Shown: positions 29,303 to 41,672 of the stretch, piece after piece | How positions within the stretch are numbered: position 1 is the first letter of the stretch | Layout: every line of letters starts with the position of its first letter | Source of the DNA: a virus | Virus record (IMG/VR): IMGVR_UViG_3300042892_002840 | Coordinates: 33,030-97,029 of that record | Length of the DNA: 64,000 nt | Strand: one strand, 5' to 3' | Position numbers and translations under genes: made by a program | The notes under the pieces: model-generated | The model's input: only the letters and a program-made list of their open reading frames with translations | Database searches by the model: none | Told to the model about the DNA's origin: nothing

Positions 29303-29324
29303 TGTCAGACCCCCATGTTAAGAT
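29303..29324 (+). promoter_or_regulatory. PafBC/RecA-NDp-type promoter TGTCAG-N10-TAnnnT
   Basis: tgtcag acccccatgt taagat. Confidence 0.75.
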
Positions 29325-29359
29325 TTATATATAAAGAAAAACAAACGAAAGGGGTCAAT

Positions 29360-29515
29360 ATGACTCAACTAACCGAACAACTGTTCAGCACTATCGTGCA
29401 TGACTTCCACAATGGTGGAGTAAAGTCCTCATATGGTTTAGATACCTACACACGCAAGGAAGTCCTTGCCTACCTTATCCGCTCTAAGGGTTGTGAGTGT
29501 ATCAACTGCCTGTGA
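29360..29515 (+). CDS. Small hypothetical early protein (MTQLTE...)
   Basis: AACGAAAGGGG RBS; C-terminal CECINC. Confidence 0.65.
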   Translation: MTQLTEQLFSTIVHDFHNGGVKSSYGLDTYTRKEVLAYLIRSKGCECINCL

Positions 29516-29526
29516 GGTATCTCACA
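29511..29526. promoter_or_regulatory. CRP/GlxR-type site
   Basis: tgtga ggtatc tcaca (perfect). Confidence 0.75.
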
Positions 29527-29554
29527 CGACACGACCCCCTAACCTCCCCCTATT

Positions 29555-29576
29555 TGTCCTACCTATCCGCTACAAT
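29555..29576 (+). promoter_or_regulatory. PafBC-type promoter, variant
   Basis: tgtcct acctatccgc tacaat. Confidence 0.55.
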
Positions 29577-29609
29577 TACAACATAACGAACTAACGAAAG
29601 AAGAAAAAC

Positions 29610-29789
29610 ATGTCCTACGCTTACTCATACGAAACTAACTCTATCTCTAAGTGGGATACAATTCAGGAAGATGTTGCAGACGCTTACTCTTACCTAGATG
29701 AAGAAACCGAACAACCACCCGTTGATGATTTTAATGATGAAGATGATGAACAACTAGCCAAACTATTCGCACTAACATGGGAGAACTAA
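29610..29789 (+). CDS. Small, very acidic protein (59 aa)
   Basis: Hand-translated MSYAYSYE...DDFNDEDDEQLAKLFALTWEN; AACGAAAG leader. Confidence 0.65.
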   Translation: MSYAYSYETNSISKWDTIQEDVADAYSYLDEETEQPPVDDFNDEDDEQLAKLFALTWEN

Positions 29790-29791
29790 TC

Positions 29792-29959
29792 ATGACTATC
29801 ACTTACTCAATTTGGCAAGGTGGGCGCTTGCTTTCTATCGACAACATGGCAAAAGATGTAAAGGAAATCGATACACTAATTAAAACGCTAAACGATAGCG
29901 ACCTAGGAAAACGCACTAAGTTTTCCGCTAACATAATGACTCTAAAGGCTGGTGAATAA
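29792..29959 (+). CDS. Hypothetical protein (MTITYSIW...)
   Basis: GGAG RBS, coupled to the upstream gene. Confidence 0.6.
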   Translation: MTITYSIWQGGRLLSIDNMAKDVKEIDTLIKTLNDSDLGKRTKFSANIMTLKAGE

Positions 29960-30155
29960 TGATAACTCTACAATGTCGCACATGCGACGAAGATGTGTCT
30001 AGCATGTGGCTAGATGAAGATGATGTAGTTACATGTGAGGGGTGTTGGTAATGACTAGACTACTAACCACTATCGTGCAATTAGGTATTGCTATTCCCGC
30101 CCTAATCATGTTGCGCCTTGTAATTAAAGACCTTAGAGAGAATGGATTAAATTAA

Positions 30156-30326
30156 ATGATAACTAGAAAACACTACATAGCCACCGCCGACATACTTGCA
30201 TCTTATAAAGATTTAATCGGAGACGAATTTACTTTCCATGATCTAGTTGATGAATTTGCGGGCATGTTCGCAGAAGATAACCCCGCATTCGATGCGGATA
30301 AATTTATAACCGCTTGCAATAAATAA
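30156..30326 (+). CDS. Hypothetical protein, paralog of 31468-31653
   Basis: MITRKHYIATADIL...FAEDNPAFDADKF versus MMTRKDYVSTAEIL...FAKDNPRFDVVRF. Confidence 0.65.
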   Translation: MITRKHYIATADILASYKDLIGDEFTFHDLVDEFAGMFAEDNPAFDADKFITACNK

Positions 30327-30377
30327 AAATAAATAACGGCGTGTCGGCTTGACAAAATCAAGCTGGCCCGCAAAGGC

Positions 30378-30427
30378 ACGGGGTCGGGCGTGTCGTTACG
30401 GCATTGTTATAAAACCCCTGAAAATTT
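30378..30427 (+). repeat. Tripartite dispersed repeat GAGGG-N13-TTACG-N15/16-(C/G)CCTGAAA, copy 1 of 9
   Basis: Other copies start at 31886, 33143, 35005, 36335, 38616, 40967, 41787 and 41844 with the same GAGGG-to-TTACG spacing. Confidence 0.8.
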
Positions 30428-30465
30428 ACGGCGTGTCGATTTGACAGACAAATCGGACATTTGCA

Positions 30466-30481
30466 TGTGACCTTTATCACA
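30466..30481. promoter_or_regulatory. CRP/GlxR-type site
   Basis: tgtga ccttta tcaca (perfect). Confidence 0.75.
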
Positions 30482-30530
30482 TGACTTGAGCGTCTCACAT
30501 CATGGACTTACTGGCTAGTAGGTAGATAAA

Positions 30531-30552
30531 TGTCAGTCCCCTAATGTATAAT
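30531..30552 (+). promoter_or_regulatory. PafBC-type promoter
   Basis: tgtcag tcccctaatg tataat. Confidence 0.8.
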
Positions 30553-30585
30553 GTCTACTATAACAACAACGAAAGAAGGTCACTC

Positions 30586-30702
30586 ATGAACCTAGATGAA
30601 TTCAAGGCGCACATCACCGCCACCCGTCAAGCAAGCAAGGCAGAAGCCTTGTCAGTGCTATCTGCTACAATTACCAAATCAACAACGAAAGAAGGCAACT
30701 AA
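30586..30702 (+). CDS. Small hypothetical protein (38 aa)
   Basis: MNLDEFKAHI...; AACGAAAGAAGG RBS; TAATG coupling. Confidence 0.55.
   Translation: MNLDEFKAHITATRQASKAEALSVLSATITKSTTKEGN
30650..30671 (+). promoter_or_regulatory. PafBC-type promoter (intragenic)
   Basis: tgtcag tgctatctgc tacaat. Confidence 0.8.
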
Positions 30703-30902
30703 TGTCAGCAAATGTCTATACTGTAGAAAGTCTCCTAGTGGGAAAAATGTATTACTCAAATTCTGTAAAGGGAGAAATTATCTCCGCAGAAAAAAATGAT
30801 GATGTCTGGTATTCCGACTCAGACACTTACAAGGTGCAGGTGCGCCCTCTAAATTCTTTTAAGGATACTTACCGCTATGTAGCGGTGAAGGTCGGTGACT
30901 AA
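30702..30902 (+). CDS. Hypothetical early protein
   Basis: AACGAAAGAAGG RBS. Confidence 0.7.
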   Translation: MSANVYTVESLLVGKMYYSNSVKGEIISAEKNDDVWYSDSDTYKVQVRPLNSFKDTYRYVAVKVGD

Positions 30903-31211
30903 TGACTTTAACAATTTACAAAACTGAATTTTATGAAATCATAGACGAGCAACACTTTTGCTGTGATGAAAGTCAGTTTAAATATTATTGCTTAGAACAC
31001 TCAGAATTTATGGGTTGCTATTTTTGCGGATTTGACTACGAAAAGAATTGCGAGGAACAACACTAATGGGATACATCGAAATTTTTCGCCTTGATGATGA
31101 GGGTGCTGGCTGGGTTGATTTATCCGAGGCTACTCCTGATGAATTATTTAACATAGAACTAGGCTTGCTTAATGAGGGAGCCTTGTTCGATACCCCAGAA
31201 GCAATTTAATT

Positions 31212-31233
31212 TGTCAGACCCCTCTGCTACAAT
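31212..31233 (+). promoter_or_regulatory. PafBC-type promoter
   Basis: tgtcag acccctctgc tacaat. Confidence 0.8.
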
Positions 31234-31264
31234 ACTCTAAACAAACAAACGAAAGGGAAAACCT

Positions 31265-31471
31265 ATGTATCAAATATCTGTTTCATACGATAGCAAGCCT
31301 ATCCATTTTAACAAGAACTATGCAGACGCACTAGAGGCGTTCACCGAATTTAATAAGTTCACCGACTGGGGCTGGGCTAATGAATACGCCACAGTTAATT
31401 TGCAAATGCCAACAGGCAAAATGTATACACGCATTTTTTATCGTGAAGGTCGAAAGGTCGTAACAAAATGA
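31265..31471 (+). CDS. Hypothetical early protein
   Basis: AACGAAAGGG RBS. Confidence 0.7.
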   Translation: MYQISVSYDSKPIHFNKNYADALEAFTEFNKFTDWGWANEYATVNLQMPTGKMYTRIFYREGRKVVTK

Positions 31472-31653
31472 TGACTCGTAAAGATTATGTTTCAACCGCA
31501 GAAATTCTAAAGTATGCAAGCGATAAAACGCACCCCGCTTTATTTTCTAAAATCGTAAATGATTTTGCTGAAATGTTTGCGAAAGATAATCCGCGTTTTG
31601 ATGTTGTGCGATTTCACGAAGCAAGTAATTACAAAGTAAAGGTGGGAAAATAA
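31468..31653 (+). CDS. Hypothetical protein, paralog of 30156-30326
   Basis: ATGA overlap; DNPRFD motif. Confidence 0.7.
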   Translation: MMTRKDYVSTAEILKYASDKTHPALFSKIVNDFAEMFAKDNPRFDVVRFHEASNYKVKVGK

Positions 31654-31954
31654 ATGCAACTAGTTGAAATGTTTGTGTGTGATAGTTGTGAGGATTTTGG
31701 TGCGGTCTACATTGAAGGAGATGTGTTAAGTGTTAAGAAATGCAAATGTGTTGAATAGAATTAAGCGTGTTCAGGAGTTGCGGAGATCAAATGCCGCAAC
31801 CCCTGTTCGCAATAAGAAAAAATACACACGCAAGCGCAAGCATAAAAATTCAGAGCTTTGAATATTTATGCAGGCCCCCTCTTTTGTGGGGGCTTGATGT
31901 GAATTACGACACATTTTAAAAACGCCTGAAAATTTGGGCGTGTCGATTAGTAAA

Positions 31955-31976
31955 TGTCAGTCCATTCTGCTATACT
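31955..31976 (+). promoter_or_regulatory. PafBC-type promoter
   Basis: tgtcag tccattctgc tatact. Confidence 0.8.
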
Positions 31977-32005
31977 TGCCATTCAACCAACGAAAGAGGT
32001 CCATC

Positions 32006-32209
32006 ATGGAACTATTTACAGTATCTTGCTTAAACTATGAAATTTGTGGCGACCAAGCAACCTTTGATTCCGTTGAGGAATATGAAATTTATGGCGATGA
32101 CTATATGTGTGCAGAATGCTACGATTCTGAAGAAATGTCATTCTTTGGCTGGGATATGGATAGCGATGCTCTTGCCTCTGCTGGCCATGGAATGGATGAG
32201 GATTACTAA
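32006..32209 (+). CDS. Small acidic Cys-containing protein (MELFTVSC...)
   Basis: AACGAAAGAGG RBS; ends ALASAGHGMDEDY. Confidence 0.7.
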   Translation: MELFTVSCLNYEICGDQATFDSVEEYEIYGDDYMCAECYDSEEMSFFGWDMDSDALASAGHGMDEDY

Positions 32210-32211
32210 TA

Positions 32212-32233
32212 TGTCAGAGGTCCAAGATATAAT
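32212..32233 (+). promoter_or_regulatory. PafBC-type promoter, leaderless to 32241
   Basis: tgtcag aggtccaaga tataat; ATG follows after 7 nt. Confidence 0.8.
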
Positions 32234-32240
32234 TACCCCC

Positions 32241-32960
32241 ATGAAACTAAAACGCTCTAATGATAGAAAGGTGGCTAACCTTGTCACAAAAAATGGAAAG
32301 CAAGCCGCAATTGCCAATACATTCGGATTACCTGCAGGAAAGGCTTATTCATGTCCTGGCGCTACGTCTATCTGCGAAAGTGTTTGCTATGCAGGCAAAT
32401 TGGAAAAGCTCTTCCCTGGAGTAAAAACTAATCTATTGCACAACTGGGAATTGCTACGCAATGCCGATATGGAAACTATGTTCTCTCTTCTTAATGAAAT
32501 GATCATAGAATTCAAAAATGACTGCGATAAGAAAGACGCTCCTAAGTTATTCCGTATCCACTGGGACGGAGATTTCTTTAATGATTTCTATACATATGCC
32601 TGGAAGAATGTAATCAATGAGCACACCGATGTTCAATTCTGGGTTTATACACGTGTAAAGTCTGCAGCGCTTATTCTTAAGGATGTATCTAATCTATCTC
32701 TTTACTATTCTACCGACGACGAGAATAAAGAAATAGCATTCGATTTAAAAACTAATTCCAAGGTCCGCCTTGCTTATCTAGGCAAGACATTCGCCTCAAC
32801 CGAAGACACAATGAAAGAATTAACGGGAAAGCCTGGCGCTAAGTGTCCTGAGAATATGAAATCAATTCCACTTATTAGCAATGCAGGGTCCGCATGTGTA
32901 TCTTGTGGCCTATGTGTCTACGGTAAAGCGGATATTAGATTTTCTGCGAGTAAAAAATGA
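32241..32960 (+). CDS. GP88-family (radical-SAM-like) phage protein
   Basis: FGLPAG..CPGA...C...CYA; FRIHWDGDF; FWVYTR; CVSCGLC. Confidence 0.8.
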   Translation: MKLKRSNDRKVANLVTKNGKQAAIANTFGLPAGKAYSCPGATSICESVCYAGKLEKLFPGVKTNLLHNWELLRNADMETMFSLLNEMIIEFKNDCDKKDAPKLFRIHWDGDFFNDFYTYAWKNVINEHTDVQFWVYTRVKSAALILKDVSNLSLYYSTDDENKEIAFDLKTNSKVRLAYLGKTFASTEDTMKELTGKPGAKCPENMKSIPLISNAGSACVSCGLCVYGKADIRFSASKK

Positions 32961-33148
32961 TAGATGTAATTGGAGCCGTGATTGCAATTATATTAATTTT
33001 ATTTTTGTGCTCACCAATTGTACTGGCCGTGTACATGTGGAATGCAGCTAAGATAGATATCGATAATGACGGAGTAGAAGATCTCCCTAACCGTTGGTGA
33101 CGGCGTGTCGAGTTGACAATTGTCAGCTCGGCCCGCATATGTGAGGGG

Positions 33149-33178
33149 TTATCCACAGGCTTACGACAGTTATCCACA
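33149..33178 (+). promoter_or_regulatory. Two DnaA-box consensus 9-mers
   Basis: TTATCCACA at 33149 and 33170. Confidence 0.55.
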
Positions 33179-33191
33179 AGCCCTGAAAATT

Positions 33192-33207
33192 TGTGATTAA
33201 TCTCACA
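33192..33207. promoter_or_regulatory. CRP/GlxR-type site
   Basis: tgtga ttaatc tcaca (perfect). Confidence 0.75.
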
Positions 33208-33240
33208 AAAGCTGCGACACGCCGATAGCATCCCACAAAA

Positions 33241-33262
33241 TGTCAGTGGCAACCGCTATAAT
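33241..33262 (+). promoter_or_regulatory. PafBC-type promoter
   Basis: tgtcag tggcaaccgc tataat. Confidence 0.8.
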
Positions 33263-33291
33263 ACTCACATACCAACAACGAAAGGCTACAA

Positions 33292-33498
33292 ATGACCAAA
33301 GTAGAACACTCTCTCAAATTCGTTACAGAGTTTGATGAAACACATCCAACCGCTCAACGATTTTTACAATTAGAAGCGGATGCACAAATTGCTATGCTAG
33401 AGTCAATGCTTAAGGACTTGCTAGTAGATGCAATTCAACCAGTAATTGACCACATTAACGAAGGTGGCTCTTACGCAATTCTAAAGGTGGCTAACTAA
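33292..33498 (+). CDS. Hypothetical early protein
   Basis: AACGAAAGG RBS. Confidence 0.7.
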   Translation: MTKVEHSLKFVTEFDETHPTAQRFLQLEADAQIAMLESMLKDLLVDAIQPVIDHINEGGSYAILKVAN

Positions 33499-33767
33499 TG
33501 GGATACACGACAGCACTATCTCTTGCAGATGATTTATCATTAGAGGCAGGACTTGCTTATCACTTACAGGGTAATCATTACCCACCCGTTCCCGTCTCTA
33601 TGGTGCAACCTTGCATAGATGCTATTGATGCGTTTTATGATGAGGAGTATAGCCGAGAGATTAATCTACCTGAAGGTATTTCATGGCGTGGGCAGAACTC
33701 TTGCCCTGCGTCTGCAATAGTAGATGCTCACCACTTAGAGGCTTGGCTACCTCAATACGAGGATTAG
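33498..33767 (+). CDS. Hypothetical phage protein
   Basis: HLQGNHYPPVP...HHLEAW; TAATG coupling. Confidence 0.75.
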   Translation: MGYTTALSLADDLSLEAGLAYHLQGNHYPPVPVSMVQPCIDAIDAFYDEEYSREINLPEGISWRGQNSCPASAIVDAHHLEAWLPQYED

Positions 33768-33783
33768 GGATCAAAACCAGGCG

Positions 33784-33799
33784 TGTGAGTTTAATCACA
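33784..33799. promoter_or_regulatory. CRP/GlxR-type site
   Basis: tgtga gtttaa tcaca (perfect). Confidence 0.75.
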
Positions 33800-33837
33800 C
33801 GCTTGGTATCTCAAATAATAAGATAGGGCTTGATAAA

Positions 33838-33859
33838 TGTCAGACCCAAATGCTACAAT
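33838..33859 (+). promoter_or_regulatory. PafBC-type promoter
   Basis: tgtcag acccaaatgc tacaat. Confidence 0.8.
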
Positions 33860-33886
33860 ACTACCCTACACAGAAAAGAGGCAAAA

Positions 33887-34069
33887 ATGACAATAGATAA
33901 TCATCTCTATAAGGTTGGCGATTTATTCACCACCCTAAAGTCAAAAAAGACAGGTGTGATTAAAGAAATCCACCCACAAGCATCTGGCTCGGTGCGTGTG
34001 CTACTGGAAATGCCAACAAAGGAAACTCGTTGGACTTCAGTATCGGCTAAGACCCTTCTAGGCGCATAA
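33887..34069 (+). CDS. Small SH3-like hypothetical protein (MTIDNHLY...)
   Basis: YKVGD...TGVIKEI; GAGG RBS. Confidence 0.65.
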   Translation: MTIDNHLYKVGDLFTTLKSKKTGVIKEIHPQASGSVRVLLEMPTKETRWTSVSAKTLLGA

Positions 34070-34147
34070 CCTAGAACGAAACAGGGACAGTTTAAGAGAG
34101 TGTTCTCGTCCAATGTCGTAAGTAAGAACTCTCTCCCTTCGGGGAAA

Positions 34148-34169
34148 TGTCAGACCCCCCTGCTATACT
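34148..34169 (+). promoter_or_regulatory. PafBC-type promoter
   Basis: tgtcag acccccctgc tatact. Confidence 0.8.
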
Positions 34170-34204
34170 ATCCATAACAACAACCAACCAACGAAAGGTA
34201 ACAA

Positions 34205-34621
34205 ATGTCCCGTCAAATCACAGTAAAGGTAGCAACAAGCAAAGTAATCAAGGCACTAGAAGGCACTCTTGCTAAACTAGAGAAGGATTACGCTTCACAG
34301 GAAGCAAACGAAGCAAAGTATCAGAAGGCGCAAGAAGCGTGGAAAAAGGAAATTGGAGATTGGGCTATCAAGAACTTCTCTAAGGCAACTAATCTCCGCA
34401 CATCTTATCGCTCTTGGAACAACACTCTCAATGTTGATTTTGACATTGTAACAAAAGAGTCAGCGTTCCCCGTAGAACCTGAAAAGGACTTTGAGGTAAT
34501 TCATCAGCACAGTTATCGTGAGATGAAAGAGGACATTACAAATGCTCTCACTATCTTAAAGATGACAGATGAGGAAACAGTAAATGCTTCTACAATGAAG
34601 CAGATTGCTAAGTATCTCTAA
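34205..34621 (+). CDS. Hypothetical early protein
   Basis: AACGAAAGG RBS; helical composition. Confidence 0.75.
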   Translation: MSRQITVKVATSKVIKALEGTLAKLEKDYASQEANEAKYQKAQEAWKKEIGDWAIKNFSKATNLRTSYRSWNNTLNVDFDIVTKESAFPVEPEKDFEVIHQHSYREMKEDITNALTILKMTDEETVNASTMKQIAKYL

Positions 34622-34658
34622 ATAATTTGGGGGGCAGAACTAAAGTCCTGAACCCAAA

Positions 34659-34685
34659 CGACCTGAGTAAGTCGCCAAACTGCTC
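34659..34685 (+). ncRNA. Candidate H-type pseudoknot RNA element, copy 1 of 3
   Basis: cgac-CTGAGTAA-gtcg-ccaaac-TGCTC. Confidence 0.5.
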
Positions 34686-34720
34686 TCCCTTCGGGGACAA
34701 CTACTAACAAAGGTAATACA

Positions 34721-34981
34721 ATGGCAAATCGTTTCAGAGTAGAAATCTACGATGCAAACAAACTTAATGACATCACGATTTATTCGGATCAAGGTGTCGA
34801 TAAAGAATATCTAACTGAATTAGTATTCAGTAATATCAGAAACTTTAGCGGAAAAATAAATGCTTATGTTTTTGATAATGTAAAGAAAAAGAAAACAACT
34901 GCAATGTTTCTTGATGAACGCACAGTTGAATTTAATAAAAATATAATTCGGAATGCAACTAAGGTAGAGTTGGGGAGTTAA
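34721..34981 (+). CDS. Hypothetical protein
   Basis: AAAGG RBS. Confidence 0.7.
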   Translation: MANRFRVEIYDANKLNDITIYSDQGVDKEYLTELVFSNIRNFSGKINAYVFDNVKKKKTTAMFLDERTVEFNKNIIRNATKVELGS

Positions 34982-35053
34982 TCCCCAGCTCGGCCCCTGC
35001 TTTTGAGGGGTTATCCACAGCGTTACGATCACCTGTGGAAAACCCTGAAATTT

Positions 35054-35069
35054 TGTGAGATTACTCACA
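35054..35069. promoter_or_regulatory. CRP/GlxR-type site
   Basis: tgtga gattac tcaca (perfect). Confidence 0.75.
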
Positions 35070-35107
35070 TGGATCAATTCGGACATATTTCTAATAAGAT
35101 AGACAAA

Positions 35108-35129
35108 TGTCAGTGGGGTCTGTTATACT
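35108..35129 (+). promoter_or_regulatory. PafBC-type promoter
   Basis: tgtcag tggggtctgt tatact. Confidence 0.8.
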
Positions 35130-35162
35130 TACCAAATCAAACAAACGAAAGGTAAAAAATAT

Positions 35163-36167
35163 ATGGCTCACAATCTCGAAATGGAAAATGGCGAAGTTGC
35201 TTTCGCTCTCCGTGGCGCACCTGCTTGGCACAACCTTGCAAATCGTATCTTCACAAAAGATGAGGAAGTTACAACTGCCTCAATGCTTAGCGAAGCAAAG
35301 TTAGCAAATTGGAATGTTCGTTTATCTCCAATCACTGACCATATCTCAGAATCTTGGAATGATGTATCTAACGCATCTCTTGTGATTCGTGACAACCCAT
35401 TCAATGGTGGAACTGATGTTCTCGCAACTGTTGGCAAGCGTTACAAGCCTGTTCAGAATGAAGAACTATTTGCATTTGCTGATGCAATTCACGATGCCAA
35501 TGCTGATTGCCGTTGGGAATCTGCGGGTTCTCTTAAGAAGGGCAAAGTTGTATTCGGCACTGTAGATATTCCTCGCACAATGGTTCTTGACCCACAAGGC
35601 GCCAATGATGAGACAAAGTTATATCTAATCGTATGGACTTCACACGATGGTTCTGTTGCTGTTCAGGCAGCCGTTACACCTGTTCGTGTTGTATGCCAAA
35701 ACACTCTTAACCTTGCAATGAAGAATGCTAAGCAATCTTTCAAGATTCGCCACACGCAATCTGTTGAAGGTCGTATTCAAGTTGCTCGTGAAACTCTTGG
35801 GCTTGCTCTTGGCTATTTCGATGAATTCGAAACCGAAGCACAAGCACTATTTTCTCAAGCAATTACCGATGCTGAATTTTCTAAGTTGATTCAGACAATT
35901 TATCCAAAGCCAGAAAAAGATGCTAAGGGTGCAATTAAAAAGTGGGAGAACAAAGTTGTTCTGCTTGATGATTTGTATCATAACTCGCCGACTAACGCTA
36001 ATATCAAGGGAACAAAGTGGGGCGCATTCAATGCGCTTACTGAGCGCCTTGATTACTATCGTTCAGGTCGTGGCAATGGTGAAACTCTTATGGCGGGTGC
36101 ATCAGGATTTGACCCTGTTCTAACTGCTGAGAAAAACAAAATCAAGAAATTGGTTTCTGCTTTCTAA
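35163..36167 (+). CDS. DUF932 (TIGR03299 phage/plasmid-like) protein
   Basis: MAHNLE...PAWH.L; Y.PVQN; ESAGSL..G; SHDGS; TPVRVVCQNTL; WGAFNA.TE. Confidence 0.88.
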   Translation: MAHNLEMENGEVAFALRGAPAWHNLANRIFTKDEEVTTASMLSEAKLANWNVRLSPITDHISESWNDVSNASLVIRDNPFNGGTDVLATVGKRYKPVQNEELFAFADAIHDANADCRWESAGSLKKGKVVFGTVDIPRTMVLDPQGANDETKLYLIVWTSHDGSVAVQAAVTPVRVVCQNTLNLAMKNAKQSFKIRHTQSVEGRIQVARETLGLALGYFDEFETEAQALFSQAITDAEFSKLIQTIYPKPEKDAKGAIKKWENKVVLLDDLYHNSPTNANIKGTKWGAFNALTERLDYYRSGRGNGETLMAGASGFDPVLTAEKNKIKKLVSAF

Positions 36168-36174
36168 ATAAAAA

Positions 36175-36202
36175 AAATCCTGAGCAAGATTTAAAACTGC
36201 TC
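36175..36202 (+). ncRNA. Candidate H-type pseudoknot RNA element, copy 2
   Basis: aaatc-CTGAGCAA-gattt-aaaac-TGCTC. Confidence 0.5.
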
Positions 36203-36209
36203 ACCATTA

Positions 36210-36283
36210 GGTCCATTAGCTCAGTTGGTTAGAGCGCTACCCTGTCACGGTAGAGGTCGACGGTTCAAGTCCGTTATGGATCG
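36210..36283 (+). tRNA. tRNA-Asp(GUC)
   Basis: Cloverleaf; anticodon arm CTACC-CT GTC AC-GGTAG. Confidence 0.92.
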
Positions 36284-36392
36284 CAAATAATATTTATGCA
36301 TTTCATTGTATAAATATGCACTGCCCCCAATACTGAGGGTGTGATTCTTATCATACGAGGATCATAAAAAATCCCTGAAAATATCTTCCATT

Positions 36393-36414
36393 TGTCAGTG
36401 GTAAGCGCTATAAT
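36393..36414 (+). promoter_or_regulatory. PafBC-type promoter
   Basis: tgtcag tggtaagcgc tataat; 1-mismatch CRP site at 36340-36355. Confidence 0.8.
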
Positions 36415-36439
36415 ACTCCTATACAACGAAAGGAATACA

Positions 36440-36874
36440 ATGGACCGCAGAGAATCAAGAAGCAACGGATATATTGGAACAATTGTAGATGGCGAAAAGC
36501 TTGCTGAAATTGCAAATGGAATTTACAACCTGCAGTACAGTAGCGACTTCTCTAAATGTACAGTAGATTCATTACTGTTTATTGAACTAGAAGAGAAGAA
36601 TGTTTACGGGGACCCTAAATATGCCTTGGTATGCTCAGAGGGTGTTGGATGGGAGCAGGACACATATGGTTGCCTAGAAGTTCCGACCAACATTGGTCAA
36701 ATGGGACTATGGAATGGAAGAGTATTTATTTCAGTAGACACTGTTAAAGCTTGTTTGACTGATCGTACAGAAGACATTGCAGATTACATTAGAATCTTTG
36801 GGGACCGCCTTGACCGCAACTGCTACTTGTGGCAGTCAAAAATGTCAGTGGTACCTGCTACAATACTCGCATGA
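36440..36874 (+). CDS. Hypothetical early protein (MDRRES...)
   Basis: AACGAAAGGA RBS. Confidence 0.7.
   Translation: MDRRESRSNGYIGTIVDGEKLAEIANGIYNLQYSSDFSKCTVDSLLFIELEEKNVYGDPKYALVCSEGVGWEQDTYGCLEVPTNIGQMGLWNGRVFISVDTVKACLTDRTEDIADYIRIFGDRLDRNCYLWQSKMSVVPATILA
36843..36864 (+). promoter_or_regulatory. PafBC-type promoter (intragenic; leaderless to 36871)
   Basis: tgtcag tggtacctgc tacaat. Confidence 0.8.
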
Positions 36875-37536
36875 CCAACGCACTAGTATCAAGTAAGTAT
36901 ACATTTGCCTGCGACCCAGATGAATGTGATGTCTTAATTGAATTAACTTCATCAGACGGGTTTGGATTCCCGTCGGGTGTGGTACAAATCACATGTCCAT
37001 GTGGCCGTAAGCCAATCTTATTGTCAGTGGAGCATGCTACAATTGCACCTTCAACAACAACGAAAGAGGATAAAATGGAAACAACAACAATCGGTTCAGA
37101 TGCATTCCACTCACCTGCAGTAGAATACAATCCTGATTTACTAGTTACATATAAAGTAATCAAGGGTTACTCTGACCCTGAATTTACAACATCAAAGGTA
37201 ACAAGTCTTGAGTGGGACCTACATAATGGTCGTCAATCTCAAAAGCGTGTAGGTCTTCTTGAATCAAACATCAATACAGTTAAAAATATAATCTCTGAGG
37301 CATATGCTGATTCAGATGACCAAGATACACTTCGTTCAATTGCTGAAGCGCTTAGCATTGAACTAACACGAACTGTAGAATTTACTGCAACTATCGAGGT
37401 TAGCGGAACAATTGACCTTAACCTTCTTGAGGACTATGACTTTGAAACAGAAATCACAGACAATCTTTATGTTGATTCACAGAGTGGCAACATTGAGATT
37501 GGCGATACTGAAATCTGTTATGTGAGGGAAGCATAA
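36871..37536 (+). CDS. Hypothetical protein with an N-terminal Cys motif and an in-frame internal start at 37075
   Basis: CDPDEC...CPCG; second promoter and RBS precede METTTI. Confidence 0.65.
   Translation: MTNALVSSKYTFACDPDECDVLIELTSSDGFGFPSGVVQITCPCGRKPILLSVEHATIAPSTTTKEDKMETTTIGSDAFHSPAVEYNPDLLVTYKVIKGYSDPEFTTSKVTSLEWDLHNGRQSQKRVGLLESNINTVKNIISEAYADSDDQDTLRSIAEALSIELTRTVEFTATIEVSGTIDLNLLEDYDFETEITDNLYVDSQSGNIEIGDTEICYVREA
37022..37043 (+). promoter_or_regulatory. PafBC-type promoter (intragenic)
   Basis: tgtcag tggagcatgc tacaat. Confidence 0.8.
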
Positions 37537-37748
37537 TGTATTTTGAATTAACTGCTCCATCTCAAGTGGCCTTTGCGAGGGCCACTTGGGAAGCGGAGAT
37601 GATTGGGCTGGACCCAATGACAATTGCACCGTTGACTTTCAACATCGGAACTGGTAGTATTGAGAAAGTATCACGGATTCGTGATAAGTATAATCTAGTA
37701 GAGAGTTATACATCAGACTACGAGCCAACAGGTTACACAGGGAGATAA
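37536..37748 (+). CDS. Hypothetical protein
   Basis: TAATG coupling. Confidence 0.65.
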   Translation: MYFELTAPSQVAFARATWEAEMIGLDPMTIAPLTFNIGTGSIEKVSRIRDKYNLVESYTSDYEPTGYTGR

Positions 37749-38074
37749 TATGTCAGACTACAAAGATGGTTTTCAAGATGGATATAAGTTTGCTCGTGAG
37801 GAACTTATGGAAAGACTTGCTGAGATTGATATCGCTGATATCGATTCTTGGATTCTTGACCGTCTTTCAGAGATGATCGAAGGTAACCAACTTTGATGGC
37901 TGAATGGCTTAAGTGTGACCAATGTGCGGCGCAAGCAATGTGGGAAGCAAAGAAAGACACAATGTCTCTTTATTTTTGCGGACACCATAAAAATGAACAG
38001 GGCGAGCCACTTGTGGACTGGGCCCAAGAAATGATACAATTACTCAACTACGAAAAAGAAATGGCGGAATAAAA

Positions 38075-38443
38075 ATGGGCGACAGAGCAAACTTTGGTTT
38101 CAGAGATTCCAAGGAAGACATCATCTTTCTATACGGGCACTGGGCTGGACATCGAATGCTAGAAAATTTAGCGGATGCTGTACAGGCTGCAGAGCCACGC
38201 TGGAATGATGAATCATATGCAACACGTATAGCAATTAGCAGACTCATTGGCGATGAATGGACCAGCGAAACTGGATGGGGCATTAGCGTAAATGCATTAG
38301 CAGATAATGAGCACAAGGTACCTATCATCGATTGGAAGAATAAAACATTCACTCTAATGGAAGAGGACCTTGTCACTGAAGTATTTACCATGGACCTTCA
38401 AAAGTTCGTGGCCAAGTATTCTAGTCAACTCGTTATGGTATAA
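38075..38443 (+). CDS. Hypothetical phage protein
   Basis: MGDRANF...LYGHWAG...RWND.SYATRI. Confidence 0.75.
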   Translation: MGDRANFGFRDSKEDIIFLYGHWAGHRMLENLADAVQAAEPRWNDESYATRIAISRLIGDEWTSETGWGISVNALADNEHKVPIIDWKNKTFTLMEEDLVTEVFTMDLQKFVAKYSSQLVMV

Positions 38444-38565
38444 TTATACTAGGACTTTGGTCCTGGTTTTAATAGGAAATGAAATGGTGCATCTATTAGT
38501 CTGCGGGCCAGGTGCTAAGTAAAGCGGTTTATTTCTTTCGTTGGAAATCAGCAGCCATATTCATA

Positions 38566-38600
38566 ACCCCTCCAGCTTGATCTGGAGGGGTTTCTATTTT
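38566..38600 (+). terminator. Intrinsic terminator
   Basis: cccctccag-cttgat-ctggagggg followed by tttctatttt. Confidence 0.75.
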
Positions 38601-38725
38601 GCCCACAAAAGATATGAGGGTAGCATATGTCTTTTACGAGTGTCAAGTAAATTCCCTGAAAATTTCACAATATGAGACGAGATTTGATCAATGTGGTGTG
38701 ATTCACACACCAAAAGGATTCCATT

Positions 38726-38747
38726 TGTCAGTGCCCTAGTATATAAT
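38726..38747 (+). promoter_or_regulatory. PafBC-type promoter
   Basis: tgtcag tgccctagta tataat; 1-mismatch CRP site at 38692-38707. Confidence 0.8.
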
Positions 38748-38774
38748 TATCACATATCAACGAAAGGATATAAT

Positions 38775-39551
38775 ATGCCAAACTGGGTGTATAACACATT
38801 AACTATCCAAGGACCTAAGTCTGAGGTAGATATGATTAAAGATAGATTGAATAAGCCTTTTACATTAGCACAAGAGACTTATGGTATGGGTGATATTTCA
38901 TCTATGGGTTTCCCCACCAAATTTGAGCAGGTAAGTTATTCTAATCCTGTCTTTGCTTTCTTCAACATTCATTCATATAAGGATGACGGCATTACTGATG
39001 AGGAATATGCTTGCCAGCCTTCTCGTGGAGATATAGATATGAAGAATGACCCTGATTGGTTCCGCAAATCTGTTGAGTTTGCTAAGACTCAAAAGGATTG
39101 GTATTCATGGAACAACTCTAATTGGGGAACTAAATGGGATGTTGCTGTTCGTGATGGTGATGAATATCCAAATACAGAACTACTTGAATATAAGTCTGAA
39201 GGTGATGACAATTGGGTTGTCTACAAATATGAAACTGCTTGGTCACCTGCTGTAACTATTCTAACTAAACTAAGTAATCTTGTTCCGAACTGCCTGCTCA
39301 CATTAGAGTATGAAGAAGAGACAGGTTGGGGTGGGGAATATGAGATTGTCCGTGGTGATGTAAAAGAATTGGCTGAATGGGAGAATCGTTGCTATGCATG
39401 CCAGTCTTTTGACACAATGAGTTATTGTGAAGATGACTGCGGTGAATTCTGCTCAGAATGTGGTCAAGGCTCTTGGCAAGATGAAGAGGCAATGAAGAAA
39501 TGTCAGACCCATAGTGTATTATTGGAATCTACAGAAAAGGCGGAAGCATAA
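38775..39551 (+). CDS. DUF1281/Api92-like (YubB ferredoxin-like) protein
   Basis: MPNWVYN.L.I.G; WY.WN..NWGTKWD; ETAWSP; C-terminal Cys cluster. Confidence 0.8.
   Translation: MPNWVYNTLTIQGPKSEVDMIKDRLNKPFTLAQETYGMGDISSMGFPTKFEQVSYSNPVFAFFNIHSYKDDGITDEEYACQPSRGDIDMKNDPDWFRKSVEFAKTQKDWYSWNNSNWGTKWDVAVRDGDEYPNTELLEYKSEGDDNWVVYKYETAWSPAVTILTKLSNLVPNCLLTLEYEEETGWGGEYEIVRGDVKELAEWENRCYACQSFDTMSYCEDDCGEFCSECGQGSWQDEEAMKKCQTHSVLLESTEKAEA
39501..39522 (+). promoter_or_regulatory. PafBC-type promoter (intragenic)
   Basis: tgtcag acccatagtg tattat. Confidence 0.7.
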
Positions 39552-39766
39552 TGGCTGAACTATTTATAGATACATTAGCAGAGCACATTACAGGTGCTAT
39601 GCAACAAGAAATTGGTGAAGCGCTATTTGACCAATGGTCTTATAATAATTTAGAGGAAGGAGAGGCATATGCTGAATTTAGATTTATGGAATATGCTTCT
39701 CGTGAATTAAAGCAACAATATAACGAATACTATGGCTATATTGAGGGAGATGAGTTTCTACTATGA
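39551..39766 (+). CDS. Acidic hypothetical protein
   Basis: TAATG coupling. Confidence 0.65.
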   Translation: MAELFIDTLAEHITGAMQQEIGEALFDQWSYNNLEEGEAYAEFRFMEYASRELKQQYNEYYGYIEGDEFLL

Positions 39767-40031
39767 TGTTAGGTTATACACAAAGAGATTTAGCAGATAT
39801 GACCTATGGGGTCTATCAAGCTGACCTGCTGGTCAATGCTGACGAGAATCCTGCAATTCATAATTATCTAGTAATGGCTCATGATTTCTTACAGGGCCTA
39901 TGGGCAGAAGGGTATTTTGATCATGCATAAACATCATTGGGAATGCACAGATACACCAGGAGTATTTATGTGCCATGCAGAGGGAACTACTGGATACTTC
40001 AATAGTTTAACTAAAGAGATTGTAGTAGATA

Positions 40032-40223
40032 ATGACTAAATCATCTTATTTCCTAGAGTATATGAAGTTACATGAGATTAGTTTAATGCAAGACCTAGAG
40101 AAGATTGATTATGTAAATGAACATCACTTCTACAGGTGCAAGGAAGCAGAAATTTACAATACCAGGCATTTGTTGTCAGTGGCTACTGATATAATGAATT
40201 CCTCTAACGAAAGGTATGAATAA
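40032..40223 (+). CDS. Hypothetical protein
   Basis: TAATG coupling. Confidence 0.6.
   Translation: MTKSSYFLEYMKLHEISLMQDLEKIDYVNEHHFYRCKEAEIYNTRHLLSVATDIMNSSNERYE
40174..40195 (+). promoter_or_regulatory. PafBC-type promoter (intragenic)
   Basis: tgtcag tggctactga tataat. Confidence 0.8.
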
Positions 40224-40495
40224 TGAATAATGAAGATATTGGGCTCCCGCCCCATTTGCAACGTATGGTCAATGCAGGAGTATCAGGCCTTGACATTATG
40301 CACGGAGAACTAAAAAATCTAATGCTCATTGCTGAGCAGGAACTAGCAGAGGCTCAGGCCATTGAAGATGAATCAGAAGAGGCAATGGACTCTATGGACC
40401 GCACAAGATGTGAAGGTGCCCTTGATACATTAGTATCACTATATAATCTAACATATCAACTATCATTTGCGATTGGAGAAAAGAATGACAACTGA
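40223..40495 (+). CDS. Hypothetical protein
   Basis: AACGAAAGG RBS. Confidence 0.7.
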   Translation: MNNEDIGLPPHLQRMVNAGVSGLDIMHGELKNLMLIAEQELAEAQAIEDESEEAMDSMDRTRCEGALDTLVSLYNLTYQLSFAIGEKNDN

Positions 40496-40835
40496 AATGG
40501 ACCTACAAGAAAAGACCCGCATGCAGGACACTTATGTCAAGATTGAATCTATTGTTGATAGCATTGGAGAACTAGGGGTCTTCCCTCCCTTGGTTTGGGT
40601 TTGGTCTTGGGATGTAGCAAAGACCATGTGGACCTCTTACATGGAGGGCGAGGACGAAGATTACTGTACAGCAATGGACCTAGACGAGGTCTGGGAGCGC
40701 TTCTGGGTAGACGCAGGCAAGAACGGGTTCACCCTTGAATACGGGGTAGAAGACCTAGATGACGCAATTCGTGACTGGCTAATGGAGATTGGCGCTGTCG
40801 AACTAGCAGAGGAGGAAGAAGATGAAGATGAGTGA
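40485..40835 (+). CDS. Very acidic hypothetical protein
   Basis: GGAG RBS; D/E-rich C-terminus. Confidence 0.7.
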   Translation: MTTEMDLQEKTRMQDTYVKIESIVDSIGELGVFPPLVWVWSWDVAKTMWTSYMEGEDEDYCTAMDLDEVWERFWVDAGKNGFTLEYGVEDLDDAIRDWLMEIGAVELAEEEEDEDE

Positions 40836-41062
40836 TGAGTACATCAATGATCAATTAAACAAAGCACAAAAACTTTTGTGGGGTGGGTCCGAAACTGAAA
40901 ACATCGAAGCCCATAACATCATTGCTAAATTAATTAAAGATCGTATTGAACAAACCAATTTGATCTGAGGGCAAAAAAAATTCGTTACGAGGGTATTTAC
41001 AAAATCGTGGATATCCTATATAATAAATATAACAACTATATCTCTTGAAAGGGGATTATCAA

Positions 41063-41212
41063 ATGGCAACAAAGCGTGAATATCTAAAGCAGCAAGGCAT
41101 TACCGTAGGTGTACGTGGTCGCTTCTCAGGAGCAGCCAAGGTAGCTCTAGCTGAGGCGGAAGCCAAGGGCATTAAGTTTACAGCAGAAGCACCAACAAGC
41201 AAGGCAAAGTAA
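41063..41212 (+). CDS. Stand-alone Lsr2-like DNA-binding domain (49 aa)
   Basis: Hand-translated MATKREYLKQQGITVGVRGRFSGAAKVALAEAEAKG...; matches the Lsr2 C-terminal REWA..NG..V..RGR pattern; GAAAGGGG RBS. Confidence 0.75.
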   Translation: MATKREYLKQQGITVGVRGRFSGAAKVALAEAEAKGIKFTAEAPTSKAK

Positions 41213-41221
41213 TCCAGGGAC

Positions 41222-41264
41222 GGGGTCAGGGCTTCGTTGGTCCTTGACCCCCTCTCTTATTTTT
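41222..41264 (+). terminator. Intrinsic terminator after the Lsr2-like gene
   Basis: ggggtcagggc...gtccttgacccc followed by a T-rich tail. Confidence 0.6.
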
Positions 41265-41297
41265 GGTATAATCGACAGTTAGGCGGAAGGCGGACAT

Positions 41298-41672
41298 ATG
41301 AGTAAATCACCTGAAATCAAAGTAGCAGAATCATTAACTAATCTAATGGATGACCATTGGTTTAATCCAACGGTCTTTGGTAGATATTTGGCGGAACAGC
41401 CATTGCATACCATTGACCGAGTTATGGAAATGATTGTGTCAGTTATATCAGAGCAAGCAAAAATGTATAATGTATATCTAAATAGAAATGAAACAACCGA
41501 AGGTCTATCTCTTGCTAATGAACTTAATGAATGTATTAAGGCTTACCAAGAAGATAACAACTTAGTTAATCTTAAGTTGCCTTCCCGTTCTTTTCAAGTC
41601 CCAAAGCGGGAGGAATCAAAAACTCAATACAAATTTGGATGGCGGAGTGAAGAACTAGATCCATTCAATTAA
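41298..41672 (+). CDS. Hypothetical protein
   Basis: TGGTATAAT promoter upstream. Confidence 0.7.
   Translation: MSKSPEIKVAESLTNLMDDHWFNPTVFGRYLAEQPLHTIDRVMEMIVSVISEQAKMYNVYLNRNETTEGLSLANELNECIKAYQEDNNLVNLKLPSRSFQVPKREESKTQYKFGWRSEELDPFN

What the first reader, a model, noticed from the sequence alone, without database searches (positions are those of the whole stretch)
29303..40195. Early region wired to the host PafBC DNA-damage promoter: 16 exact TGTCAG-N10-TAnnnT copies
Seen: TGTCAG-N10-TAnnnT starts at 29303, 30531, 30650, 31212, 31955, 32212, 33241, 33838, 34148, 35108, 36393, 36843, 37022, 38726, 39501 and 40174, with a variant at 29555. All are on the plus strand with an invariant 10-nt spacer. 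Each is followed by an A/C-rich leader (usually AACGAAAG) and an ATG, or by a leaderless ATG (32241, 36871). I noticed none outside 29-40 kb. Established: the actinobacterial LexA-independent DNA-damage promoter (RecA-NDp, TGTCRg-N10-TAnnnT) is the site where the WYL activator PafBC, switched on by single-stranded nucleic acid, redirects SigA-RNAP to a -26 element. Inference: the phage uses the host damage/ssDNA sensor as its early-gene activator, possibly triggered by the infection itself. A phage-encoded mimic is the alternative. I am not aware of this being described.
Basis: partly seen in the sequence, partly recalled or inferred. Interest (0 to 1): 0.92.

Follow-up and report, generated by a model that had tools for sequence, protein, structure and literature searches.

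The report
Phage promoters copying host PafBC boxes
An uncultured lake phage of actinobacteria drives one 11-kb block of small genes from 17 promoters built like the DNA-damage promoters (recA and others) that its likely hosts switch on through PafBC, their single-stranded-DNA alarm protein; it probably borrows that switch, but nothing has been tested at the bench.

Summary
TGTCAG-N10-TAnnnT occurs 16 times as a promoter on the + strand between 29303 and 40195, against 0.84 expected by chance. There is also a TGTCCT variant at 29555. Two further exact matches are chance 'ATGTCAG' gene starts.

The motif has no -35 box and often an extended -10. An SD-bearing leader or a leaderless ATG follows it. 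All 80 close relatives and five complete 112-120 kb relatives keep 7-19 copies in one block on one strand.

The window is 38% G+C. The phage carries whiB and is a distant relative of Streptomyces Stanwilliamsviridae, whose homologous arm uses ordinary -35/-10 promoters.

Small (1.3-1.5 Mb) actinobacterial genomes keep pafB-pafC and carry TGTCAGTGGCGCCTGCTACCTT upstream of recA. A matrix built only from phage sites ranks RmuC, CarD, recA, an AdnAB-like helicase-nuclease and two more LexA-boxed genes as its top six hits in one such genome.

No WYL, sigma or HTH gene was found in the phage or its complete relatives. Borrowing of host PafBC is therefore the best reading (about 0.6). The host, the transcription start sites and PafBC dependence are untested.

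This scan has noted the same thing in at least 51 other lake-phage genomes. I found no paper describing it.

The parts
29303..42030 (+). Block of about 38 small + strand genes flanked by minus-strand blocks. It includes GP88-family, DUF932, Api92-like and Lsr2-like genes and a tRNA-Asp. It is a presumed early / host-takeover module.
   Evidence: ORFs. Pfam and PHROGs. Homologous to the small-gene arm (terminal-repeat region) of Streptomyces BE-cluster phages.
29303..29324 (+). PafBC-type promoter TGTCAGACCCCCATGTTAAGAT; leader, then ATG at 29360
29555..29576 (+). Variant promoter TGTCCT-N10-TACAAT (GTC kept); leader, then ATG at 29610; CRP-like box 44 nt upstream
30531..30552 (+). PafBC-type promoter TGTCAGTCCCCTAATGTATAAT; ATG at 30586
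30650..30671 (+). PafBC-type promoter TGTCAGTGCTATCTGCTACAAT; ATG at 30702
31212..31233 (+). PafBC-type promoter TGTCAGACCCCTCTGCTACAAT; ATG at 31265
31955..31976 (+). PafBC-type promoter TGTCAGTCCATTCTGCTATACT; ATG at 32006
32212..32233 (+). PafBC-type promoter TGTCAGAGGTCCAAGATATAAT; leaderless ATG at 32241 (GP88-family protein)
   Evidence: The Pfam domain begins at that ATG.
33241..33262 (+). PafBC-type promoter TGTCAGTGGCAACCGCTATAAT; ATG at 33292
33838..33859 (+). PafBC-type promoter TGTCAGACCCAAATGCTACAAT; ATG at 33887
34148..34169 (+). PafBC-type promoter TGTCAGACCCCCCTGCTATACT; ATG at 34205
35108..35129 (+). PafBC-type promoter TGTCAGTGGGGTCTGTTATACT; ATG at 35163 (DUF932 protein)
   Evidence: Footprint over 44 distinct orthologous upstream regions: -26 and -10 invariant, spacer variable.
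36393..36414 (+). PafBC-type promoter TGTCAGTGGTAAGCGCTATAAT; ATG at 36440
36843..36864 (+). PafBC-type promoter TGTCAGTGGTACCTGCTACAAT; leaderless ATG at 36871
37022..37043 (+). PafBC-type promoter TGTCAGTGGAGCATGCTACAAT inside the 36871 frame; SD and in-frame ATG at 37075
38726..38747 (+). PafBC-type promoter TGTCAGTGCCCTAGTATATAAT; ATG at 38775 (Api92-like, DUF1281_C)
39501..39522 (+). PafBC-type promoter TGTCAGACCCATAGTGTATTAT; ATG at 39551
40174..40195 (+). PafBC-type promoter TGTCAGTGGCTACTGATATAAT; ATG at 40223
40996..41024 (+). Ordinary promoter TTTACA-17-TATAAT before the 49-aa Lsr2-like gene (41063). This is a second promoter class in the same block.
41244..41272 (+). Ordinary promoter TTGACC-17-(TG)TATAAT before a 124-aa protein of unknown function (41298-41669). 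Conserved in relatives.

Best explanation
The 17 sites are promoters of the PafBC / RecA-NDp class, read by the host's own machinery.

Proposed mechanism:
1. Host RNA polymerase with the housekeeping sigma factor reads the (often extended) -10.
2. The host heterodimer PafBC, once it has bound single-stranded DNA, reads the TGTCAG element at -28 to -23 and takes the place of the missing -35 contact ('sigma adaptation').
3. The phage has thereby put nearly every transcription unit of one 11-kb block of small, probably early or host-takeover genes under the host's ssDNA / DNA-damage alarm. The block would fire when ssDNA appears in the infected cell, from entry, nuclease attack or replication.

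Shown:
- the motif, its over-representation, its strand and position before genes, and its conservation;
- its identity with the damage-regulon promoter of host-like genomes;
- pafBC present in those genomes;
- no recognisable phage WYL or sigma gene.

Inferred:
- PafBC binding and dependence;
- the ssDNA trigger;
- the timing;
- the host.
For: 1. Geometry equals the published PafBC consensus tGTCgg(N10)tA(N3)T. That consensus has a strictly conserved GTC triplet, its -26 element lies at -23 to -28, and the promoters lack a -35 (PMC8635444).

2. The logo of 875 distinct site contexts from the window and 80 relatives reads aAA-TGTCAG-(T/A)(G/C)(C/G)c..(c/a)TGc-TAtAAT. Where a -35 would lie there is no more than about 0.2 bit of information.

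3. Conservation:
- 80 of 80 related loci carry 7-18 copies on the gene strand and 0-1 on the other.
- Five 100%-complete relatives carry 14-19, all in one 9-11 kb block.
- In 44 distinct orthologous DUF932 upstream regions, ATGTCAGTG and TGTTATAcT are invariant while the spacer varies.

4. Host-like genomes:
- 299 of 301 sampled genomes of the class have WYL genes.
- G200 (1.35 Mb) has pafB-pafC-tatC-helY synteny.
- Its PafB aligns to M. smegmatis PafB in 7p5x (E 8e-34) and keeps the DNA-reading R46 and R50.

5. recA of most 1.3-1.4 Mb genomes is preceded by TGTCAG(T/A/C)(G/C)(G/C)..CCTGCTACCTT plus a LexA box. This matches the phage consensus at 18 of 22 positions, TGG and CTG included.

6. 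Cross-validation: a matrix made only from phage sites was scanned over the whole 1.34-Mb genome G273. Its top six hits lie before these genes:
- RmuC (leaderless);
- CarD;
- recA;
- a UvrD-helicase / PD-(D/E)XK AdnAB-like gene (leaderless);
- a LysM (ChiZ-like) gene;
- a DUF6504 gene.
Three of the about four genuine LexA boxes of that genome sit 0-7 nt after such a motif.

7. Host motifs are mostly 6-7 nt before an ATG, marking leaderless genes. Two phage sites are the same, which fixes the expected transcription start.

8. No WYL, sigma70_r4 or HTH family was found in any ORF of this record, and no WYL in five complete relatives.

9. The same block holds ordinary -35/-10 promoters, and the Streptomyces relative Genie2 uses TTGCAT/TTGACA-N17-TAGACT for the homologous arm. 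The -35-less class is therefore a distinct, lineage-specific choice.
Against: - No binding, transcription-start or expression-timing data exist. The RNA runs available are assembled contigs, which cannot show 5' ends.
- The host is unknown. The best-studied host-like genome is 48.6% G+C against 38% for the phage, and shares only tRNA-level similarity with it.
- Most sites have a TGn extended -10, which can work without any -35 or activator. PafBC might therefore be dispensable.
- An early programme that waits for an ssDNA signal is risky for a lytic phage.
- About 30 of the block's small proteins, and many elsewhere, have no family. A novel phage factor cannot be excluded.
- This record is only 86% complete. 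The five complete relatives were checked for WYL only.
Confidence: 0.6

Rival explanations
1. A phage-encoded or virion-delivered factor, with no recognisable family, reads TGTCAG and recruits host RNA polymerase. This would be a MotA/AsiA-like 'sigma appropriation' or a PafBC mimic. The likeness to host PafBC promoters would then be convergence or mimicry of the site only.
For: The block also has ordinary -35/-10 promoters, before an Lsr2-like 49-aa gene and a conserved 124-aa all-helical protein of unknown function. These could be made first and switch on the rest. Most small proteins in the block have no family. T4 middle promoters are a precedent for replacing the -35 with a box at about -30 (PMC8635444).
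Against: No WYL, HTH or sigma family was detected in any ORF here, and no WYL in five complete relatives. The motif matches the host damage-regulon motif beyond the hexamer: TGG/SS, CTG, the spacing and leaderless use. A private phage factor would not need that.
Confidence: 0.15
2. The promoters are factor-independent extended -10 promoters. On this reading TGTCAG is not an activator site. It could be an operator for shut-off by a host or phage repressor. It could instead be a decoy that titrates PafBC away from host repair and defence genes once the genome is replicated.
For: TG at -15/-14 is present in about 79% of site contexts, and extended -10 promoters need no -35 (established knowledge). 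Sixteen sites per genome copy outnumber the roughly 6-10 good sites of a whole host-like genome. Host PafBC-type promoters also precede defence-island genes.
Against: The host recA promoters carry the same CTG-n-TA extended -10 and are the textbook PafBC-dependent case. The fixed 10-nt spacing to the -10 is what an activator that bridges to sigma needs; a decoy or operator would not need it. Titration and activation are not exclusive.
Confidence: 0.2
3. Chance or compositional artefact, or a repeat spread by duplication without function.
For: None beyond two chance 'ATGTCAG' matches.
Against: There are 18 matches against 0.84 expected. All real sites are intergenic, co-oriented, and at a fixed distance before an SD and ATG. 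The motif is conserved while spacers and flanks vary.
Confidence: 0.01

Closest known systems
PafBC-dependent (RecA-NDp, recA P1-type) promoters of Mycobacterium and other Actinobacteria, read by 'sigma adaptation' (Mueller et al., Sci Adv 2021, PMC8635444; ssDNA trigger, Sci Adv 2025, PMC11804915)
   Same: Same 22-nt bipartite motif: a GTC-containing hexamer at -28 to -23, a 10-nt spacer, and TAnnnT. Neither has a -35. The phage sites have the same sub-variant as the recA promoters of small actinobacterial genomes.
   Different: These sites are on a lytic-type phage genome, 17 in 11 kb, before small genes of unknown function rather than repair genes. The A variant TGTCAG makes up 95% of sites. 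Most have an extended -10, and many have a CRP-like box upstream. PafBC dependence is untested.
T4 middle promoters (MotA box at -30 plus AsiA; sigma appropriation)
   Same: A phage gene class whose promoters keep the -10 and replace the -35 with another box nearer the -10, read through an adaptor on sigma region 4.
   Different: In T4 the adaptor and activator are phage-coded. Here no such gene is recognisable, and the box is that of a host activator.
Phage genes tied to the host SOS response (LexA or RecA-controlled prophage induction, e.g. lambda CI cleavage, LexA-repressed phage antirepressors)
   Same: The phage ties its programme to the host's DNA-damage sensing.
   Different: Those act through a repressor and mostly in temperate phages. 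Here an activator-type promoter drives a whole block. No integrase or repressor family turned up in the Pfam or PHROGs scans.
Early small-gene arm of Streptomyces Stanwilliamsviridae (BE/BK-cluster phages, e.g. Genie2 MK359332); multi-promoter host-takeover modules of SPO1 and T5
   Same: Homologous genes (DUF932 52% identical, Lsr2-like), the same layout of many short units each with its own promoter, and portal 54-57% identical.
   Different: Genie2 uses ordinary TTGCAT/TTGACA-N17-TAGACT promoters and has no TGTC -26 element in the first 50 kb of its record, which contains that arm.

Membership tests
PafBC-dependent (RecA-NDp) promoter | Hexamer tGTCgg with an invariant GTC at about -28 to -23 | tested here: met
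   TGTCAG in 16 sites and TGTCCT in one. Among relatives, 1118 TGTCAG and 61 TGTCGG.
PafBC-dependent (RecA-NDp) promoter | Exactly 10 nt between the hexamer and a TAnnnT -10 | tested here: met
   Invariant in all sites. Consensus from PMC8635444.
PafBC-dependent (RecA-NDp) promoter | No -35 element | tested here: met
   No more than about 0.2 bit per position where a -35 would lie, over 875 contexts. Only 4 of 16 sites have a 4/6 TTGACA-like hexamer at 18-nt spacing.
PafBC-dependent (RecA-NDp) promoter | Transcription starts about 7 nt after the -10 | tested here: inconclusive
   Two phage sites and most host sites have an ATG 6-7 nt after the -10, marking leaderless genes. The Pfam domain starts at 32241. 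RNA runs were contigs only, so no 5' ends could be seen.
PafBC-dependent (RecA-NDp) promoter | Host encodes PafB/PafC with the DNA-reading arginines | tested here: inconclusive
   Met in host-like genomes: tandem WYL genes in pafB-pafC-tatC-helY synteny, with R46 and R50 kept, and WYL genes in 299 of 301 genomes of the class. The phage's real host is not identified.
PafBC-dependent (RecA-NDp) promoter | The same motif marks the host's DNA-damage regulon | tested here: met
   The phage-derived matrix ranks RmuC, CarD, recA, AdnAB-like, LysM/ChiZ-like and DUF6504 genes as the top six hits of G273. Three of these have LexA boxes.
PafBC-dependent (RecA-NDp) promoter | Bound and activated by PafBC with ssDNA; induced by DNA damage; silent in a pafBC mutant | not testable with these tools
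   Needs in vitro transcription, EMSA or reporter assays.
Phage-coded sigma appropriation (MotA/AsiA type) | A phage-encoded activator or adaptor that reads the box | tested here: inconclusive
   No WYL, sigma or HTH family in any ORF. Many ORFs have no family. The model of the 124-aa candidate was too poor to use (pLDDT 55).

The most novel reading that the evidence does not exclude
A lytic phage lineage has swapped the ordinary early promoters of its relatives for the host's ssDNA-alarm promoters.

On this reading, the cell's detection of ssDNA is the very signal that switches on the phage's takeover and anti-defence genes. That ssDNA could include the product of nuclease attack on the incoming genome.

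Once the genome is replicated, its 17 sites per copy would also soak up PafBC. That would starve host repair and defence-island genes that use the same promoter.

Upstream CRP-like boxes would add a second host input (cAMP).
Probability: 0.3. Interest if true: 0.85.

Novelty: new variant of a known kind. Interest (0 to 1): 0.72.

Why it matters
PafBC is known only as a regulator of cellular DNA repair. WYL-domain regulators are otherwise linked to anti-phage defence.

A widespread, abundant clade of lake phages that wires a whole gene block to PafBC-type promoters would be the first case of a phage exploiting this activator. It would be a natural counterpart to T4's phage-coded sigma appropriation.

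It would also give a simple, testable link between host ssDNA sensing, phage takeover and defence-island expression in the most abundant freshwater bacteria.

It offers compact, strong, PafBC-responsive promoter parts for actinobacterial genetics.

The motif is conserved across Actinobacteria, so the idea can be tested now in M. smegmatis, Corynebacterium or Streptomyces strains with and without pafBC.

Tried and rejected
- Megablast of the block against 50,697 phage records found no match. One 'distant' query was over the size limit.
- A class-level genome search gave no taxon names, so host-like genomes are described only by size and G+C. That 299/301 tally includes the unpublished genomes G009, G024, G029, G032, G038, G243 and G281. 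No other claim rests on them.
- The whiB query in genome contigs returned mostly mis-binned phage contigs, not hosts.
- blastn and tblastx of the phage against host-like G273 gave only tRNA-level matches (80-88%) and weak protein matches, so there is no host link.
- The first 50 kb of Streptomyces phage Genie2 holds no cluster of the motif. The other 81 kb was not scanned.
- A 57-kb phage-like contig in the Aquiluna MAG has no motif cluster.
- One-mismatch variants are at chance level.
- Metatranscriptomes: four freshwater RNA runs from four studies hold contigs, mostly 90-99% alike, over the + block. They are assembled contigs. They show no starts, ends or strand (table 6 was empty), and the runs were chosen with the block as bait. 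The much thinner cover of the flanking minus-strand genes therefore cannot be used as evidence.
- The 124-aa protein behind an ordinary promoter had no usable Atlas hit. It has 417 homologues, all from this phage clade and unnamed. The AlphaFold model was too poor for a fold search (pLDDT 55).
- Literature searches for PafBC with phage, prophage, bacteriophage, sigma adaptation and RecA-NDp found no paper on phage promoters of this class.
- The cultured Planktophila phages are unrelated 39-kb genomes.

Full report
**Observation**

TGTCAG-N10-TAnnnT occurs 18 times in the 64-kb window, where shuffles give a mean of 0.84 and a maximum of 4.

The seventeenth (30703) and the single minus-strand match (53573) are both 'ATG TCA G' at the start of a coding frame. 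53573 is the start of the phage's whiB gene. 30703 scores 2.8 bits on the site matrix, against 22.9-33.0 for the others. I count both as chance.

The variant at 29555 is TGTCCT-N10-TACAAT. It keeps the GTC triplet and precedes a leader and an ATG. One-mismatch variants are no commoner than chance. The remaining 33 kb of the 97-kb record have no match.

Each site is followed by one of two things:
- a 25-43 nt A/C-rich leader ending in (A)ACGAAAGG and an ATG, or
- a leaderless ATG 6-7 nt after the -10 (32241, 36871).

The Pfam GP88 domain begins exactly at the leaderless ATG 32241.

**What the genome is**

The window is about 38% G+C. It is part of a 97-kb IMG/VR virus record rated 86% complete.

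It encodes one WhiB. It also has structural genes and a class II ribonucleotide reductase whose nearest cultured relatives are the 127-135 kb Streptomyces phages of the Stanwilliamsviridae. Identities are 54-57% for the portal, 65% for RNR and 52% for DUF932. It is therefore an actinophage, but not a mycobacteriophage.

Its close relatives are hundreds of lake-metagenome contigs of up to 120 kb.

The + strand block from 29.3 to 42.0 kb holds about 38 small genes. Among them are GP88-family, DUF932, Api92-like (DUF1281_C) and Lsr2-like genes. In the Streptomyces relatives the DUF932 homologue lies in the small-gene arm at the genome end and is present twice per record. This fits an early or host-takeover module, but the timing is inferred.

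**Anatomy and conservation of the motif**

All 80 related loci carry 7-18 copies on the gene strand and 0-1 on the other. TGTCAG outnumbers TGTCGG by 1118 to 61.

Five 100%-complete relatives (112-120 kb) have 14-19 copies, all in one 9-11 kb block on one strand.

The logo from 875 distinct contexts is aAA-TGTCAG-(T/A)(G/C)(C/G)c..(c/a)TGc-TAtAAT. It shows a frequent TGn extended -10, essentially no information where a -35 would lie, and an A/C-rich leader.

In 44 distinct versions of the orthologous DUF932 upstream region, ATGTCAGTG and TGTTATAcT never change while the spacer between them does. This is a footprint of selection on the two elements.

**Comparison with the known promoter class**

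The published in vivo PafBC motif is tGTCgg(N10)tA(N3)T (PMC8635444). In that motif:
- the hexamer lies at -23 to -28;
- the GTC triplet is strictly conserved across actinobacteria and is read by PafB R46 and R50;
- there is no -35;
- PafBC sits between the DNA and sigma region 4 ('sigma adaptation').

The phage sites meet every sequence criterion.

**Host side**

I could not identify the host. The whiB query found only mis-binned phage contigs and a few MAGs.

Starting from an Aquiluna MAG, I sampled 301 genomes of its class, and 299 have WYL genes. That tally includes seven unpublished genomes. The 1.3-1.5 Mb genomes each have a tandem pair of these genes.

In G200 the pair lies in the classical pafB-pafC-tatC-helY arrangement, although pafA and the proteasome genes are gone. 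Its PafB aligns with M. smegmatis PafB of the RNAP complex 7p5x (E 8e-34) and keeps R46 and R50.

Upstream of recA, most 1.3-1.4 Mb genomes have TGTCAG(T/A/C)(G/C)(G/C)..CCTGCTACCTT followed directly by a LexA box. A 1.5-Mb group and higher-G+C genomes have TGTCGG. The phage consensus TGTCAGTGGcaCCTGcTAtAAT matches the commonest recA version at 18 of 22 positions.

**Cross-validation**

I fetched the whole 1.34-Mb genome G273 (48.6% G+C). I scanned it with a matrix built only from phage sites.

The six best of 2.7 million positions lie before these genes:
1. RmuC (leaderless).
2. CarD.
3. recA.
4. A 1022-aa UvrD-helicase / PD-(D/E)XK AdnAB-like gene (leaderless).
5. A LysM (ChiZ-like) gene.
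6. A DUF6504 gene.

The genome has about four genuine LexA boxes, and three of them sit 0-7 nt after such a motif. The phage motif is therefore the DNA-damage promoter of such genomes.

These genomes have only some 6-10 good sites in all. The phage packs 17 into 11 kb.

**Phage-coded factor?**

No WYL, sigma70 region 4 or HTH family was found in this record. No WYL was found in five complete relatives. The only recognisable DNA-binding proteins are WhiB and an Lsr2-like 49-aa protein.

Most of the small proteins have no family, so a new factor cannot be excluded.

The end of the block has two ordinary -35/-10 promoters. They lie at 40996-41024, before the Lsr2-like gene, and at 41244-41272, before a conserved 124-aa protein. 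These show two things:
- The host polymerase reads ordinary -35 boxes, so the TGTCAG class is a separate regulatory class.
- There is a possible 'first' gene set, which the rival explanation needs.

The 124-aa protein gave only a low-confidence all-helical model.

The Streptomyces relative Genie2 drives its homologous arm from TTGCAT/TTGACA-N17-TAGACT promoters and has no TGTC element. The -26 element was therefore acquired within the lake lineage.

**Expression**

Four freshwater metatranscriptome runs hold contigs over the block. They are assemblies and were found with the block as bait. They show neither starts nor relative levels.

**Verdict**

The best explanation (about 0.6) is that host PafBC with SigA-RNAP reads these promoters, so that the block responds to ssDNA in the infected cell.

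Rivals:
- an unrecognised phage-coded reader of the box (0.15);
- factor-independent extended -10 promoters in which TGTCAG serves as an operator or PafBC decoy (0.2), which is not exclusive of activation.

**Novelty**

I found no paper describing phage promoters of this class.

Earlier AI notes of this scan report the same motif in at least 51 other lake-phage genomes with the same reading. These agree with mine but are not independent evidence.

I rate this a new variant of a known kind, with interest 0.72.

Noticed in passing
window 29239, 29511, 30466, 31898, 33192, 33784, 35054, 36340, 36978, 38692 (16-nt boxes): CRP/GlxR-like boxes TGTGA-N6-TCACA. Twelve in the window have at most 1 mismatch (2.1 expected by mononucleotide shuffles), and ten of these lie in the block. 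The box start lies 34-65 nt upstream of a TGTCAG (TGTCCT at 29555 for the 29511 box), often in about 10-bp steps. The box before the DUF932 promoter is conserved in relatives.
   Followed up: partly
window 33149, 33170, 35011, 41737, 41749: Five exact TTATCCACA (E. coli-type DnaA box), all on the + strand of the block. The last two form the arms of the terminator-like hairpin at 41739-41767, downstream of the 124-aa gene.
   Followed up: no
window 36871-37533: One reading frame has two starts, each with its own PafBC-type promoter: a leaderless ATG at 36871 (promoter 36843) and an SD-led in-frame ATG at 37075 (promoter 37022). Two nested protein forms are possible.
   Followed up: no
window 35163-36164 and 38775-39548: DUF932 and Api92-like (DUF1281_C) genes are, as I recall, typical of the leading (first-entering) regions of conjugative elements, which are themselves expressed from single-stranded DNA. 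Here they sit behind ssDNA-alarm-type promoters.
   Followed up: no
L109 (G245:C1:418500-432500) and L110 (G273:C1:420000-432000): In host-like genomes several PafBC-type promoters, mostly leaderless, cluster in a lower-G+C island. They lie before a type II DNA methylase, a trypsin-like peptidase and a CAAX/Abi-like protease. A further TGTCAG site inside the preceding ORF lies upstream of an HATPase_c_3 gene that follows a PbeA-like helicase. The host alarm regulon may therefore include defence genes.
   Followed up: partly
L123 (G200:C1:615500-626500): A streamlined 1.35-Mb genome keeps pafB-pafC-tatC-helY directly after trmI. No pafA, pup or proteasome genes lie between them. PafBC is retained although the Pup-proteasome locus is lost.
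   Followed up: partly
L124 (Streptomyces phage Genie2, MK359332, 900-11500, minus strand): Nearly every small early gene is preceded by a terminator hairpin, a conserved GCCGCCCCGG element and AAAAGATCT, then a TTGCAT/TTGACA-N17-TAGACT promoter. This is an unexplained conserved upstream element in the cultured relatives.
   Followed up: no
G309 (MAG filed as Bacteroidia; contigs C6, C57, C106, C174, C213, C215) and G001:C2: Public MAGs contain mis-binned contigs of this phage clade, with clusters of the motif. A 57-kb phage-like contig with whiB and a RecA-like gene sits in an Aquiluna MAG. Host labels taken from these bins would mislead.
   Followed up: partly
window 36210-36284: A tRNA-Asp gene lies inside the + strand block. 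Nine more tRNA genes lie elsewhere in the window on the minus strand.
   Followed up: no
window 24442-24463 (-) and 53573-53594 (-): Two similar stretches, ATGTC(G/A)GA(A/T)ATTTTAAATA. One is the start of whiB (MSDILN...). The other is conserved in relatives and may start a second, similar small gene.
   Followed up: no
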